Below are positions 40,047 through 43,391 of a stretch of DNA of 64,000 bases, piece after piece (positions within the stretch are counted from its first letter, which is position 1; each line of letters starts with the position of its first letter). The notes under the pieces were generated by a model, which did not search any database, was not told the origin of the DNA, and saw only the letters and a program-made list of their open reading frames with translations. The stretch lies in assembly GCA_963822445.1 (NCBI GenBank), contig CAWGHO010000001.1, positions 128,001 to 192,000 of the forward strand, read 5' to 3'. Source of the stretch: an uncultured Acidobacteriota bacterium. Lineage in GTDB: Bacteria > Acidobacteriota > Thermoanaerobaculia > Gp7-AA8. The position numbers were made by a program, and so were the translations under genes.

Positions 40047-40846
40047 AACGCGCCGCGGTGATCCTCGCCGGCGGTGCGGGCACGCGACTGCGGCCGCTCA
40101 GCTCCGACGAGAATCCGAAGCAGTTTCTGAAGCTGTTCGATGGCCAGTCGCTCCTGCAACTGACGTTCGATCGCCTGCGCCGCATCCTCCCCGCCGACGC
40201 GATCTTTGTCTCAACGAACGACCAGTACGCGGCGAAGAGCCTCGAGCACCTGCCCGAGCTGCCGCCTGAAAACGTGATCGCCGAGCCGGCCCGCCGCAAC
40301 ACGGCGCCGGCCATCGCCCTGTGCACGTTCGAGATCGAAGAGCGCATCGGTCCCTGCACCGTGTCGTTCCTCGCCTCGGATCACTACATCGGCAAGGTCG
40401 ACGAGTTCGTGCGCGTGCTCTCCCGCGCATACGACTTCGCCGAAACGAATGACTATCTGATGACGATCGGCATCGCGCCAGACGAGCCCACCACCGGCTT
40501 CGGCTATCTCGAGCTCGGCGAAACGCTCGATGGCGAAGTGATGCGCGTGCGCGCCTTCACCGAAAAGCCGGACCGCCCCCGCGCGGAGGAGTTTCTGCGC
40601 GCGGGAAATTACGCCTGGAACGCGAGCATGTTCGTCTGGCGCTCGGAGGTCTTCCGCCGCGAGCTCGCCGCGGTCGCACCGGACCTTGCCGGCGTGACCC
40701 GCGCAAATTACGAGGAGATGCCGTCGATCTCGATCGACTACGCGCTGATGGAAAAGTCGCCGCGCGTCGCCACGATTCGCGGGGATTTCGAATGGTCGGA
40801 TGTGGGGACGTTCGAGGCTCTGCGGCGCGTCGGCGTGGATGTTTAG
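40043..40846 (+). CDS. manC: Mannose-1-phosphate guanylyltransferase (short form)
   Basis: LAGGAGTRL.PLS...PKQF, EPARRNTAPA, FTEKP, SIDYALME and WSDVG. Confidence 0.8.
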   Translation: MKRAAVILAGGAGTRLRPLSSDENPKQFLKLFDGQSLLQLTFDRLRRILPADAIFVSTNDQYAAKSLEHLPELPPENVIAEPARRNTAPAIALCTFEIEERIGPCTVSFLASDHYIGKVDEFVRVLSRAYDFAETNDYLMTIGIAPDEPTTGFGYLELGETLDGEVMRVRAFTEKPDRPRAEEFLRAGNYAWNASMFVWRSEVFRRELAAVAPDLAGVTRANYEEMPSISIDYALMEKSPRVATIRGDFEWSDVGTFEALRRVGVDV

Positions 40847-40902
40847 CTCGATGCCACAGGGGACGACCGGGGGCCTCCGGACATCTGAGCCTTCCTGTCA
40901 AG

Positions 40903-42147
40903 TCAGGCAGCAGCTGTGGCGAGGGTTGAGCCTCGGGTGGCGAGCTGCCGCAGATAGAGAGCTTCGTCGTAGACGGTGCGATTGTTCCAGCAGGCGTAAA
41001 GGACGCGGATCCAGCGGTAAGCGAGCGTGCGGATAGCCTCGTGGTGGCTGTGTCCGCGCGCGCGTTGCTGCTTGTAGAAGGCTCGAGCCCATTCGGACTG
41101 ACCGATCGACACGCGGGCGTACTCATGGAACGTCTGACGCAGGAACTTCGGACAGGCCCAGCGCATGTGCACGACCGCCGTTTTGCCGCTCCGGCGGAGA
41201 ACCGGGGCGATGCCGCTTCGGGTGGCGACGTTGACGGCGCTGCCGAAGCGCTTGCGATCGGTCCCGAAGGCGGCGGCGAGCCGCGGCGCGAGCTGTTGGC
41301 CGGCGCCAGGGAAGCTCGCGAAGATCGACGCGTCCTGGTGGGCGGCGAACGCCGCCGAGATCTTCTGGTCGTACGTGGCGATGCTCGTGTTGAGGGCCCG
41401 GATCTGCGCAACCTCGCTTCCGATCAGCAGCACGGCAGCGTCAGTGGTGACCTGATCGTCGTGGAACGCGACCTCTGAACGGATCTCGGCGAGCCTCTGG
41501 TCGATCCACGCGGCCGCGTGATGACGACCCGCATAGAACCTCCTTATCGCGGACGGCCGAGCCCTTTGGATGGCCTCGAGCGTCGGCCAGCGTTCGAGGA
41601 AGTCACAGGCCTGCGCCGTAATCAACGCGCCGGCCCACTGGAGCGCCTGCGGGTAATACGTCTTGAGCCGATCGGTCATGCGTTGGACGTGTTGCGTCCT
41701 CTGATCGACGAGCTCCCGCCGATCCTCGGTCAGAAGCCGCAGCAGACGCGTAGAAGCGTCGTCGGCGATGAACGGGCGCAGCTCGTTGCGGTGCTTACGA
41801 AGCAGGTCGAGCAAGGACGCCGCGTCGGTCGGATCGTCTTTCGAAAGGCTCGGATGAAACGCCTCACGATACCGGGCTGCACTGCGTGGGTTGATCGGAT
41901 ACAACGTGACGAACGGATAGCCGCTGAGCGCGTCGAAGACCGCGCCGCGGGACTGCTCGATGGCCACGGCGATCGGTGCCCCGCCGAAGCGCGCCTGCAG
42001 CGCTTCGATCCATGCGCGCAGAGCCGCAGGCGTGTGCTCGATGCGCTCGTTCGTGCACGTCTGCTGTTGCTCGTCCCAAAGAGCCACCTCGTGCGATGTG
42101 TCACCCCAATCCAGCCCCACCAACGCCCCAAACTCGAACTCGGTCAT
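40903..42147 (-). CDS. IS110 DEDD transposase / bridge recombinase (414 aa)
   Basis: GLDWG, AIEQS and KDDPTDA (DEDD); GIAPVLRRSGK in the Tnp domain; GGAGG RBS. Confidence 0.95.
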   Translation of the reverse strand: MTEFEFGALVGLDWGDTSHEVALWDEQQQTCTNERIEHTPAALRAWIEALQARFGGAPIAVAIEQSRGAVFDALSGYPFVTLYPINPRSAARYREAFHPSLSKDDPTDAASLLDLLRKHRNELRPFIADDASTRLLRLLTEDRRELVDQRTQHVQRMTDRLKTYYPQALQWAGALITAQACDFLERWPTLEAIQRARPSAIRRFYAGRHHAAAWIDQRLAEIRSEVAFHDDQVTTDAAVLLIGSEVAQIRALNTSIATYDQKISAAFAAHQDASIFASFPGAGQQLAPRLAAAFGTDRKRFGSAVNVATRSGIAPVLRRSGKTAVVHMRWACPKFLRQTFHEYARVSIGQSEWARAFYKQQRARGHSHHEAIRTLAYRWIRVLYACWNNRTVYDEALYLRQLATRGSTLATAAA

Positions 42148-42167
42148 CACACCCTCCCTTCGGGTTG

Positions 42168-42410
42168 GCTTTGGCCGCGCGCAAGGCCTATAGTCGAGTC
42201 GTGCTCCGACAGCATCTGAGAATGCGTTTCGGGCCAAAGCACTTCGTCCCGCTCGAAAGTCCGGAGGGATTCGTCGATCCGAACACGGGCGGAATTCGTA
42301 GCGGGACGAACCCTTCCTCTCAGTATCGCGCCGCCTGAACCCGATTCTCCCGATTGCCACCCAACGGGTACTTCTCTGAGGGCTGAGGGAGAAGCGGAGA
42401 GACGGCCGGA
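42168..42410 (-). ncRNA. Predicted IS110 bridge RNA (target- and donor-binding loops; ends approximate)
   Basis: Stems 42243-53/42300-10 (11 bp) and 42168-76/42232-40 (9 bp) enclose segments matching the target and the circle junction. Confidence 0.8.
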
Positions 42411-42557
42411 CAAGCTATAGGCGGGCCGGCCACGGGCCGGCAGGCGCTGGTTGTGCCTTCTGCCGAGCTCACGGTAGCTAGCGCGGATCGCGTTCACGCC
42501 AACATGAGCGCTGCCGGCCGTGCCGGCCCGCCGGAGGCCTCTGGTTTCCCTGTTGCA

Positions 42558-43391
42558 TCACGCGAACAATCGCGTCGCGTTGTCCCAGAGGATCTTCCGC
42601 TCGACCTCGTCGCCCAGCCCCAAAGACAGAAACTCCTCCACATTCCGCTTCATCGACGCCACGCCGGGTGAAGGCCAATCCGTCCCCCACACCACCTTGT
42701 CCGCGATCTGCGCGACGCGCGGGAAGTACTTAGGCAACGCTTTGGGCGGGATGCCCGACAGGTCGATGTTCACGTTCGGGTGGCGGCGGGCCAGGAAGAA
42801 CGCCGTCTCGCCGTACAGCGGACGGCCCGCGTGCGCGAGGATGATCTTCAGATTCGGGAAGTCCACGGCCACGTCATCGACCGGCATCGGGTCGGCGAAA
42901 ACGTTGCGGGCGCGCGGGAACACCGACGTTCCCGTGTGGAACATCACCGGCACGCCGCGCGCTTCGCATTCGCGATAGATCTCCGCGAGCTGCCACAGCT
43001 CGCCGCGGTACGCGTTCGGCGAGAAGAGCTGGTGCGGCGGATGGATCTTGATCATGCCGATGCCGAGGTCGAGGACGCGGCGGATCTCGTCGCGGACGTT
43101 CATCTCGTGCAGCGGATTGACCGAGCCGACCGGCACCAGGCGATCGCGGTGGTCCTTCGTGTAATCCGCGATCCAGTCGTTCACTTCGCGGGTGAAACCC
43201 ATCACGTCCGGTGAGACGTAGTTGATGCAGCACAGACGCTCCACGCCCTGCTCGTCCATGTGGCGCAGGAGATTCTCCGGCGTCGACAGGATGTCCTTCG
43301 CGTTCGCGTGTGAAGGATCGTCGATCATGGCCAGCGCATCGGGATTGACCATCTGCCACGGCTGGATGTGGACGTGAACGTCGAAAATCAT
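42558..43391 (-). CDS. Amidohydrolase_2-family protein
   Basis: DVHVH, KIHP, FHTG, AHAG and WGTDWP. Confidence 0.9.
   Translation of the reverse strand: MIFDVHVHIQPWQMVNPDALAMIDDPSHANAKDILSTPENLLRHMDEQGVERLCCINYVSPDVMGFTREVNDWIADYTKDHRDRLVPVGSVNPLHEMNVRDEIRRVLDLGIGMIKIHPPHQLFSPNAYRGELWQLAEIYRECEARGVPVMFHTGTSVFPRARNVFADPMPVDDVAVDFPNLKIILAHAGRPLYGETAFFLARRHPNVNIDLSGIPPKALPKYFPRVAQIADKVVWGTDWPSPGVASMKRNVEEFLSLGLGDEVERKILWDNATRLFA

What the first reader, a model, noticed from the sequence alone, without database searches (positions are those of the whole stretch)
42168..42310. IS110 bridge RNA whose guides can be read and match the actual insertion site
Seen, on the transposase strand: target GCCGGCCCG-CC-GGAGG and circle-junction donor CTCAGATGT-CC-TATAG. 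The upstream non-coding region has two stem-enclosed internal loops. Loop 1 (stem 42243-53/42300-10) holds CCGCCCGU, a partial left-target match, and CCUCCGG, the exact 7-nt reverse complement of CCGGAGG. Loop 2 (stem 42168-76/42232-40) holds CUCAGAUG, an exact 8-nt left-donor match, and CUAUAGG, the exact reverse complement of CCTATAG. Known: this is the target-loop/donor-loop layout of IS621-type bridge RNAs. Inference: an intact programmable recombinase with a CC core (IS621 uses CT), 7-nt right guides, a long 5' stem and a 414-aa enzyme, so a candidate new tool ortholog.
Basis: partly seen in the sequence, partly recalled or inferred. Interest (0 to 1): 0.85.

Follow-up and report, generated by a model that had tools for sequence, protein, structure and literature searches.

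The report
Natural IS110 bridge RNA, CC core
This is a well-preserved jumping gene of the known IS110 family whose own guide ("bridge") RNA can be read against its insertion sites; it is a new member of a known kind that crosses over at CC instead of the usual CT.

Summary
Window 40881-42421 (minus strand) is a 1.54-kb IS110-group insertion sequence. It has a 414-aa DEDD/Ser recombinase, a 272-nt left end and a 22-nt right end.

- **Copies and target:** All 9 full copies in the genome sit at ...CCCG-CC|IS|CC-GGAGG. The uninterrupted target occurs 34 times, at the ends of a MITE-like repeat.
- **RNA structure:** The left end folds into two stem-enclosed internal loops. In 59 homologous sequences 31 of 38 base pairs show compensatory changes.
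- **Guides in the window:** Loop 1 carries CCGCCCG (left target) and CCUCCGG (core + right target). Loop 2 carries CUCAGAUG (left donor) and CUAUAGG (core + right donor).
- **Guides across relatives:** Loop-1 guides follow each element's own flanks (0 of 10,000 permutations reach the observed match). The core-reading bases in both loops change together (GG/GG, AG/AG, AC/AC in 57 of 59 rows), and the handshake bases covary with the opposite DNA.
- **Promoter:** A TTGACA-N17-TATAGC promoter forms only at the circle junction.

This is a genuine bridge-RNA system, but a new member of a known kind. The 2+5-nt right guides match the 14-nt geometry reported for IS622. The long 5' stem lacks covariation support. 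Expression and activity are untested.

The parts
40881..42421 (-). Whole IS110-group element (about 1541 bp, counting one copy of the CC core)
   Evidence: Nine full copies at 96-100% identity in the genome end at the same two junctions.
42420..42421 (-). CC core at the left-end junction
   Evidence: CC is the only sequence shared by both junctions and the uninterrupted target.
40879..40880 (-). CC core at the right-end junction
   Evidence: Same evidence as the left-end core.
42422..42430 (-). Left target flank GCCGGCCCG. It is the 3' arm of a GC-rich hairpin in the end of a MITE-like repeat.
40874..40878 (-). Right target flank GGAGG
   Evidence: It is complementary to the right target guide.
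40903..42147 (-). Recombinase gene, 414 aa plus stop. Catalytic residues D13, E64, D105, D108 and S320-G321.
   Evidence: Pfam PF01548 1.6e-28 and PF02371 1.4e-11. NCBIfam NF033542 143.5 bits against a cut-off of 140. These residues are invariant in 47 sequences. The AF2 model (pLDDT 90.1) matches IS621 and ISCro4 best.
42152..42158 (-). Ribosome-binding site GGGAGGG before the ATG at 42147
   Evidence: Read from the sequence. GGAGG-like sites are aligned before the start codon in homologs.
42243..42310 (-). Target-binding loop module: outer stem 42310-42295 with 42257-42243, inner hairpin 42283-42270
   Evidence: Fold. RNAalifold finds 17 of 19 pairs with compensatory change. Helices 1 and 2 are 94.7% and 91.4% paired.
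42286..42292 (-). Left target guide CCGCCCG, followed by UG at 42285-42284 in the core positions
   Evidence: Identical to the 7 nt left of the core in 3 of 9 copies and 6 of 7 in the other six. Across the family, 6-7 of 7 positions match in 32 of 37 distinct loops.
42261..42267 (-). Right target guide CCUCCGG, the reverse complement of CC+GGAGG
42259..42260 (-). Target-loop handshake guide AC. It is complementary to the donor's GT just left of the core and not to the target's CG.
   Evidence: The first base is complementary to donor position -1 in 41 of 42 element types. The concept comes from passages of PMC11208158.
42168..42240 (-). Donor-binding loop module: outer stem 42240-42230 with 42179-42168, middle stem 42226-42223 with 42183-42180, inner hairpin 42210-42198
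   Evidence: Fold. Helices 3-5 are 75.5%, 96.8% and 92.7% paired, and 14 of their 19 pairs show compensatory change.
42213..42220 (-). Left donor guide CUCAGAUG
   Evidence: Identical to the right-end terminus 40889-40882. A match to this guide with at most 1 mismatch was found downstream of the gene in 89 of 104 locus records.
42187..42193 (-). Right donor guide CUAUAGG, the reverse complement of CC+TATAG, followed by handshake guide CC at 42186-42185
   Evidence: Its exact reverse complement was found upstream in 96 of 104 locus records. The first handshake base is complementary to target position -1 in 38 of 43 element types.
40896..40901 (-). -35 box TTGACA in the right end. After circularisation it lies 17 bp from TATAGC (42419-42414), which is both the -10 box and the right donor.
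   Evidence: TTGAC(N) lies at 17-18 bp from TATAG(N) across the reconstructed junction in 39 of 39 element types. No sigma-70-like site was found on the element strand of the integrated copy.
42315..42419 (-). 5' leader, predicted as one long imperfect hairpin
   Evidence: dG -46 kcal/mol, z -2.67. Weak: 2 of 33 pairs compensatory, covariation term +2.28.
42522..42539 (+). Intact, unoccupied copy of the 18-nt target in the other arm of the same repeat, in inverted orientation
   Evidence: One search lists C1:170522 on the + strand, which is window 42522.

Best explanation
Window 40881-42421 (minus strand) is an apparently intact insertion sequence of the IS110 group. It encodes a DEDD/serine recombinase and, in its 272-nt left end, a bridge RNA.

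Inferred mechanism, by analogy with IS621/IS622:
1. Excision joins the right end to the left end around the CC core.
2. Only then does the TTGACA in the right end sit 17 bp from TATAGC in the left end. That junction promoter drives the bridge RNA and the recombinase mRNA.
3. The donor-binding loop holds the circle junction. [quoted passage not shown]
4. The target-binding loop holds a genomic site. [quoted passage not shown]
5. Recombinase tetramers exchange strands at CC. The handshake bases AC and CC pair with the opposite DNA after the first exchange.

The natural target GCCG(G)CCCG-CC-GGAGGCC is the terminal arm of a MITE-like repeat and lies on the 3' arm of a GC-rich hairpin.

Shown here: the element, its copies and junctions, the protein family and fold, the conserved RNA structure, and guide/flank, core and handshake covariation.

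Inferred: transcription, RNA-protein binding, the strand-exchange chemistry, and present-day activity.
For: **Element and copies**
- 14 matches in the own genome, of which 9 are full length at 96-100% identity.
- 9 of 9 are flanked by ...CCCGCC|TATAG and GATGT|CCGGAGG.
- The uninterrupted target occurs 29 times, plus 5 times as a variant.

**Protein**
- Pfam DEDD_Tnp_IS110 and Transposase_20.
- NCBIfam 'IS110 family RNA-guided transposase', above the cut-off.
- D13, E64, D105, D108 and S320-G321 are invariant in 47 sequences. They correspond to IS621 D11, E60, D102, D105 and S241-G242 (passages). The Ser-Gly was placed by the ISCro4 alignment. The four acidic residues were placed by motif and order, not by a printed alignment.
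- The AF2 model has pLDDT 90.1. The top 10 fold matches are all IS621 or ISCro4 chains (E about 1e-12, TM on target 0.76-0.79).

**RNA structure**
- 59 sequences: 88.9% of cells paired against 70.3% in shuffles.
- 31 of 38 pairs show compensatory change, and 0 of 500 shuffles reach this.
- Slid controls give 28-48% paired.

**Guides**
- All four guide motifs are in the window. 0 of 200,000 shuffles hold all four.
- For 30 distinct target loops with both flanks, the mean longest exact match to the element's own flank is 7.0 nt (left) and 6.6 nt (right). Mismatched pairings give 3.5 and 3.1. 0 of 10,000 permutations reach the observed total.

**Core**
- The core-reading bases of the right target guide and right donor guide are equal in 57 of 59 rows: AG/AG 46, GG/GG 9, AC/AC 2.
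- They agree with the CT, CC and GT found at the junctions.

**Handshake**
- 41 of 42 and 38 of 43 complementary.

**Junction promoter**
- Present in 39 of 39 element types.

**Not coding**
- 32 of 56 homologs have an in-frame stop within 170 nt upstream of the start codon.
Against: - **No expression data.** No RNA run holds the stretch. The four DNA runs laid were fragmentary contigs of relatives and showed no circle-junction joint.
- **No Rfam hit.** No Rfam family matches the region at E <= 1.
- **Left-guide mismatches.** The left target guide mismatches the window copy's own left flank at position -6, as in 6 of 9 copies. The enrichment of insertions in the perfectly matching variant is not significant (3 of 9 occupied against 5 of 34 empty, one-sided Fisher p = 0.21).
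- **Core positions of the left guides.** In the two positions after the left target guide the RNA reads UG against CC. That is at best a U-G wobble followed by a mismatch. The left donor guide is followed by CU, against T then CC. Across the family only the first core base is usually matched by the left target guide (29 of 35 with C). The second is matched no better than chance (10 of 37). This differs from what is reported for IS621.
- **Partial circularity.** Ends in homologs were located with the donor guides themselves, so donor matching in relatives is partly circular. The target-loop test is not.
- **Relatedness.** The sequences are related, so shuffle and permutation counts overstate independence.
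Confidence: 0.92

Rival explanations
1. The region upstream of the ATG is only a leader, or an N-terminal coding extension of the transposase. A 485-aa ORF from the GTG at 42360 runs through it. On this reading the guide-like matches come from chance or from terminal sequence repeats and have no RNA-guide function.
For: The frame is open through the region in the window and in 24 of 56 homologs. No RNA data exist.
Against: - 32 of 56 homologs carry in-frame stops within 170 nt upstream.
- A ribosome-binding site precedes the ATG at 42147.
- Compensatory base-pair changes occur in 31 of 38 pairs.
- Loop sequences follow each element's own flanks (0 of 10,000 permutations).
- 0 of 200,000 shuffles hold all four motifs.
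Confidence: 0.02
2. The element has a genuine bridge-RNA architecture but is no longer mobile in this genome. It would be a recently expanded, now silent family, for example because the left guide no longer fits the commonest target variant or the core-position bases have drifted.
For: - One mismatch to the commonest left flank, and UG in the core positions of the left guide.
- Two rearranged or broken copies.
- No joints in the laid contigs.
Against: - Eight copies are 98-100% identical over the full length and a ninth is 96%.
- Nine copies have open reading frames without stops.
- All catalytic residues are kept.
- Guides are identical in the copies matched exactly.
- 3 insertions lie in the perfectly matching variant.
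Confidence: 0.12
3. Target choice is set not by base pairing alone but also by DNA structure. The GC-rich hairpin whose 3' arm carries the left target would be a second specificity determinant, as reported for ISPpu10.
For: - 13 of 13 distinct left flanks of the window's clade fold into a hairpin that ends at the left target. The arms differ between sites but stay complementary (dG -8.6 to -29.7 kcal/mol).
- Several more distant relatives do the same, for example the L047 group, L055, L063 and L064.
- The ISPpu10 abstract describes this logic.
Against: - The hairpin may simply be part of the repeat that happens to carry the target.
- Other relatives (the L071 and L082 groups) insert next to flanks with little or no predicted structure.
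Confidence: 0.3

Closest known systems
IS621 (E. coli) and IS622/ISCro4 (Citrobacter rodentium) bridge recombinase systems
   Same: - Protein architecture: RuvC-like DEDD domain, coiled coil, and Tnp domain with a catalytic Ser-Gly.
- The bridge RNA lies in the left end, upstream of the gene.
- Two stem-enclosed internal loops in the order target loop then donor loop.
- Left guides are identical to the top strand and right guides are complementary to it. The core is read in the right guides of both loops. Two handshake bases follow each right guide (passages).
- 7+2+5 = 14-nt recognition, as modelled for IS622.
- A promoter split across the RE-LE junction (mentions the natural sigma-70 promoter's -35 box in the IS621 RE-LE).
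   Different: - Only 17-19% identical in the structural alignment. By sequence search only the Tnp domain aligns significantly (E 2e-5 and 2.4e-4).
- 414 aa, against the 328-aa (IS621) and 341-aa (ISCro4) chains in the PDB. The extra residues lie between the RuvC and Tnp domains, as helices 131-268 in the model.
- CC core instead of CT.
- The left target guide matches only the first core base in this family.
- The right donor guide is contiguous (7 nt), not discontiguous as reported for IS621.
- The 5' leader is about 105 nt.
- No Rfam model matches.
ISPpu10 / ISPpu9-type IS110 elements that insert into REP or stem-loop-bearing intergenic repeats (Pseudomonas putida)
   Same: The element inserts site-specifically into a multi-copy GC-rich palindromic repeat. 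A GC-rich stem-loop lies on the 5' side of the target (ISPpu10 abstract; ISPpu9 abstract start in the listing).
   Different: A different host phylum: by their record titles the relatives found are mostly Acidobacteriota MAGs. The role of the hairpin is untested here. I did not compare sequences with ISPpu9 or ISPpu10.
IS1111-group elements (guide RNA in the right end)
   Same: Same recombinase family, and the same logic of RNA-guided choice of target and donor.
   Different: Here the right end is only 22 nt and the RNA lies in the 272-nt left end. I saw no 7-17-bp subterminal inverted repeats by eye, and I did not search for them with a tool.

Membership tests
IS110 family, IS110 group (bridge recombinase systems) | Recombinase with an N-terminal RuvC-like DEDD domain and a C-terminal Tnp domain carrying the catalytic serine | tested here: met
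   PF01548 1.6e-28 and PF02371 1.4e-11. NF033542 143.5 bits against a cut-off of 140. D13, E64, D105, D108 and S320-G321 are invariant in 47 sequences. Fold matches to IS621 and ISCro4 have E about 1e-12.
IS110 family, IS110 group (bridge recombinase systems) | No terminal inverted repeats. A 2-nt core is present at both junctions and once in the empty site. | tested here: met
   CC at both junctions in 9 of 9 copies. The uninterrupted target with a single CC occurs 34 times in the genome. The ends TATAGC... and ...CAGATGT are not inverted repeats.
IS110 family, IS110 group (bridge recombinase systems) | Left non-coding end much longer than the right, with the RNA encoded in the left end | tested here: met
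   The left end is 272 nt (42419-42148) and the right end is 22 nt (40902-40881). The criterion is from passages of PMC11208160.
IS110 family, IS110 group (bridge recombinase systems) | RNA with two internal loops, one matching target flanks and one matching the element ends, with strand polarity as in IS621 | tested here: met
   Structure covariation is shown.
IS110 family, IS110 group (bridge recombinase systems) | Guides covary with target and donor DNA across orthologues | tested here: met
   0 of 10,000 permutations reach the observed total. Core guides are equal in 57 of 59 rows, and handshake bases are complementary in 41 of 42 and 38 of 43.
IS110 family, IS110 group (bridge recombinase systems) | Promoter reconstituted at the circle junction | tested here: met
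   Sequence level only: TTGACA-N17-TATAGC in the window and 39 of 39 element types in the family. Transcription was not measured.
IS110 family, IS110 group (bridge recombinase systems) | The RNA is expressed and bound by the recombinase, and recombination depends on the guides | not testable with these tools
   No RNA holder is listed. Only contigs could be laid, and they showed no joints.
IS621-type bridge RNA in the narrow sense | Left target guide pairs with both core bases; CT core; 4-nt right target guide; discontiguous right donor guide | tested here: not met
   The core is CC. The right target guide is 7 nt contiguous. The left target guide matches only the first core base in the family and neither base canonically in the window. 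The right donor guide is contiguous (IS621 features). It works like IS621 but is a distant relative, not the same subtype.
IS1111 group | Long right end that encodes the RNA; subterminal inverted repeats of 7-17 bp | tested here: not met
   The right end is 22 nt and the RNA is in the left end. The subterminal repeats were checked by eye only.
Rfam-curated RNA family | Match to a covariance model | tested here: inconclusive
   The only match in 40500-43000 at E <= 1 is an unrelated chance hit inside the gene (BTH_s19, 14.9 bits against a gathering score of 153). Whether Rfam 15 holds any bridge-RNA model was not established.

The most novel reading that the evidence does not exclude
The window's clade is a naturally CC-core bridge recombinase lineage from Acidobacteriota-like soil bacteria, only about 17-19% identical to IS621 and ISCro4. 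Three features set it apart:
- The left guides contact only the first core base.
- The right donor half-site doubles as the -10 box of the junction promoter.
- Target choice is gated by a GC-rich hairpin at the end of a MITE-like repeat.

If active, it would be an orthogonal, compact recombinase that opens CC-core sites and carries a built-in structural specificity gate.
Probability: 0.4. Interest if true: 0.45.

Novelty: new member of a known kind. Interest (0 to 1): 0.3.

Why it matters
**For biology.** This is a clean natural example of the full bridge-RNA logic, seen in a little-studied phylum and far from the characterised enzymes. Guides, core reading, handshake bases and the junction promoter can all be read from genome sequence alone. 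The evidence is 9 insertions, 34 empty sites and about 30 differently targeted relatives. It also shows that the crossover dinucleotide switches in nature between CT, CC and GT, with matched changes in both loops.

**For tool building.** It nominates a divergent enzyme and RNA pair with a CC core and 14-nt recognition. The discovery paper's passages report predicted bridge RNAs in 85.7% of IS110-group elements catalogued in ISfinder, so finding another one is expected rather than surprising.

Tried and rejected
- **Rfam** scan of 40500-43000 gave no relevant family.
- **Sequencing runs.** No RNA holder is listed. The best DNA holder has 0.23 of the sampled words. Laying X1-X4 gave only short contigs of relatives and no joints. 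One loose end at 42420 reads into an uninterrupted target-like sequence, which fits the boundary but adds nothing beyond.
- **5' leader.** The clade alignment gave 2 of 33 compensatory pairs and a positive covariation term. Single folds of 14 leaders show hairpins of differing form, with z from +0.83 to -4.0. I therefore do not claim a conserved 5' stem.
- **Preference for the perfectly matching target variant** is not significant (p = 0.21).
- **Sequence search of the PDB** aligned only the Tnp domain significantly. Relatedness over the full length came only from the fold search.
- **Literature.** The phrase 'CC core' occurs 0 times in the 9 papers holding at least two of 'bridge RNA', 'core dinucleotide' and 'CC core'. 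This does not show that natural CC cores are unreported.
- **Rows dropped:**
  - One search left out upstream regions shorter than 200 nt and exact duplicates, which left 60 sequences.
  - L101 was dropped before for a poor alignment, leaving 59 rows.
  - One search used only the 34 rows with both flanks found, collapsed to 30 distinct loops, each with its modal flank.

What I saw of each paper:
- PMC11208160: passages only.
- PMC11208158: passages only.
- 10.1101/2025.05.14.653916: passages only.
- 10.64898/2026.03.19.712850 and 10.64898/2026.08.31.748434: abstract and outline.
- All other titles: the search listing only.
- Tobes & Pareja 2006: only as a reference-list entry.

Full report
**What is there.**
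On the minus strand the window holds an open reading frame of 414 codons (42147-40903). A 272-nt non-coding stretch precedes it and 22 nt follow it before the sequence changes character. The protein matches Pfam DEDD_Tnp_IS110 (1.6e-28) and Transposase_20 (1.4e-11). It also passes NCBI's equivalog model 'IS110 family RNA-guided transposase' with 143.5 bits against a cut-off of 140.

**Boundaries and copies.**
A search of the window's own 6.0-Mb genome with the element plus 20-nt flanks gave 14 matches. Nine are full length at 96-100% identity. In 9 of 9 the element begins ...CCCG-CC|TATAGCTTG and ends GCTCAGATGT|CC-GGAGG.

The dinucleotide CC is the only sequence common to both junctions, so it is the core. 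The reconstructed empty site GCCGGCCCG-CC-GGAGGCC occurs uninterrupted 29 times in the genome, and the variant GCCGCCCG-CC-GGAGGCC occurs 5 times. These sites are the inverted ends of a repeat of about 125-130 bp. There are 14 intact units, and 46 copies of the 11-mer that spans the core. One intact site lies in the window at 42522-42539, in the other arm of the repeat that the element has split.

None of 200,000 shuffles of the 149-nt region holds all four motifs.

The left target guide is better than 'partial'. It equals the 7 nt left of the core in 3 of the 9 copies and differs at one position (-6) in the other six, the window's copy among them.

**Relatives.**
- In 60 related genomes, 8 have a match at E <= 1e-30. 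Relatives at 78-86% identity lie in the same genus, and others lie at 42-45%.
- A scan of one genome per species found 311 relatives, of which 79 loci were kept. By their record titles most are Acidobacteriota metagenome-assembled genomes, at 45-88% identity.
- I aligned the 149-nt region of 59 non-identical sequences. Shorter and duplicate upstream regions, and one badly aligned row (L101), had been left out.

**RNA structure.**
RNAalifold recovered the target-loop stems on its own, with 17 of 19 pairs showing compensatory change. I then counted the full five-helix structure taken from the window's fold:
- 88.9% of cells are paired, against 70.3% in shuffles.
- 31 of 38 pairs show changes on both sides.
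- 0 of 500 shuffles reach any of the five measures.
- Sliding the partners by 1-3 columns drops pairing to 28-48%.

The structure was derived from one member and the sequences are related, so these figures are generous. The per-pair tables nonetheless show many independent pair types.

**Guides against flanks.**
For every locus I looked upstream for the exact reverse complement of its own right donor guide and downstream for its own left donor guide (at most 1 mismatch). Ends were found in 96 and 89 of 104 locus records. Several of the misses lie at contig ends.

The flanks so defined were then compared with the target loop, which had played no part in finding them. For 30 distinct target loops with both flanks, the longest exact match between a loop strand and its own flank averages 7.0 nt (left) and 6.6 nt (right). 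Mismatched pairings give 3.5 and 3.1. The observed total is 408, the highest of 10,000 permutations is 262, and none reaches the observed value. In the best register, 32 of 37 distinct left loops match 6 or 7 of the 7 positions.

**Core.**
The two bases that read the core in the right target guide and in the right donor guide are the same in 57 of 59 rows: AG/AG in 46, GG/GG in 9 and AC/AC in 2. The junctions of those elements show CT, CC and GT respectively. CC cores occur in the window's clade and in three other rows (L074, L106, L112). So the CC core is real and has matched changes in both loops.

The left target guide behaves differently from what is reported for IS621. In this family the base after the 7-nt match equals the first core base in 29 of 35 C-core cases. 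The next base matches only 10 of 37 times. In the window the two bases are UG.

**Handshake bases.**
Passages of the IS621 structure paper describe two bases 3' of each right guide. After strand exchange they pair with the opposite DNA, and they must not pair with their own DNA.
- Here the target loop has AC after its right guide. AC is complementary to the donor's GT and not to the target's CG.
- The donor loop has CC. Its first base pairs with the target's G.
- Across the family the first handshake base is complementary to the opposite DNA in 41 of 42 cases (target loop against donor) and 38 of 43 cases (donor loop against target).

**Promoter.**
TTGACA (40901-40896) in the right end would lie 17 bp from TATAGC (42419-42414) once the ends are joined through one CC. 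TTGAC(N) lies at 17-18 bp from TATAG(N) in 39 of 39 element types. The right donor half-site is therefore also the -10 box. No sigma-70-like site was found on the element's strand in the integrated copy.

**Protein.**
D13, E64, D105, D108 and S320-G321 are invariant in 47 sequences. They correspond to the catalytic D11, E60, D102, D105 and S241-G242 of IS621. The serine was placed by the alignment to ISCro4.

The AlphaFold2 model has a mean pLDDT of 90.1. Its ten best matches among solved structures are all IS621 or ISCro4 chains, with E about 1e-12, TM-score on the target 0.76-0.79 and 17-19% identity. The extra length sits in the helical region between the two catalytic domains.

**Rival readings.**
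- A coding extension is unlikely, because 32 of 56 homologs have in-frame stops within 170 nt upstream.
- A silent relic cannot be excluded without experiments. Against it stand nine open copies and identical guides.
- All 13 distinct left flanks in the window's clade form a GC-rich hairpin that ends in the left target. The arm sequences differ but remain complementary. This recalls the target stem-loop reported for ISPpu10 (abstract), but it may simply reflect the repeat's own structure.

**What failed.**
No RNA data exist. The laid contigs showed no joints. The 5' leader's long hairpin is predicted (z -2.67) but has almost no covariation support. No Rfam model matches.

**Comparison and verdict.**
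This works like IS621/IS622 and belongs to the IS110 group of the IS110 family. It is not the IS621 subtype. The differences are:
- the CC core;
- the contiguous 7-nt right guides;
- left guides that match only one core base;
- a longer protein;
- a longer leader.

Right guides longer than IS621's and non-CT cores are already discussed in the discovery paper, and 14-nt recognition is modelled for IS622. The finding is therefore a new member of a known kind.

Noticed in passing
window 42422-42545 and 14 intact units elsewhere in the genome (e.g. G000 C1:245879-246003): A MITE-like repeat of about 125-130 bp with roughly 30-bp inverted ends that carry the IS target. Each end also contains a small GC-rich hairpin. 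The core-spanning 11-mer occurs 46 times in the genome.
   Followed up: partly
G000 C3:469203-470858 (L010, L012, L014, L036): A copy of the element with an internal inverted segment of about 160 bp and 3 TGA stops in the recombinase frame. It is a rearranged, broken copy.
   Followed up: no
G000 C1:940343-941445 (L011, L013, L037, L038): Two partial 3' portions of the element lie head to head and meet at position 941051. One is 99% and the other 95% identical to the window copy.
   Followed up: no
L022 (G003 C1), left-end junction: In one of five copies of a 42%-identical relative, the first about 15 nt of the left end (core plus TATAGGTGCTC) are tandemly duplicated.
   Followed up: no
L021 (G018 C184), downstream of the gene: The right end plus about 20 nt of flank appears twice in tandem near the end of a short contig. 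This may be an assembly artefact or a tandem target.
   Followed up: no
L118 (E. coli plasmid NZ_CP069544.1, locus 450-660 and 1925-1950): A 42%-identical 'IS110 family transposase' on an IncFIA plasmid has, by eye, the same layout upstream: TTACGAAT...TTTCGAG stem, ACTCAGGG and CTATAT loop motifs. This RNA architecture therefore seems to reach Enterobacterial plasmids. 1142 plasmid records hold a relative below 60% identity.
   Followed up: partly
window 42148-42360, minus strand: The recombinase frame stays open upstream to a GTG at 42360, giving a 485-aa ORF. Gene callers may therefore annotate a false N-terminal extension across the bridge RNA.
   Followed up: yes
window 42165-42194, plus strand: This is the only sigma-70-like site in 40800-42600. 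It lies antisense to the donor-binding loop (TTGGCT-18-TATAGT, 9 of 12 matches).
   Followed up: no
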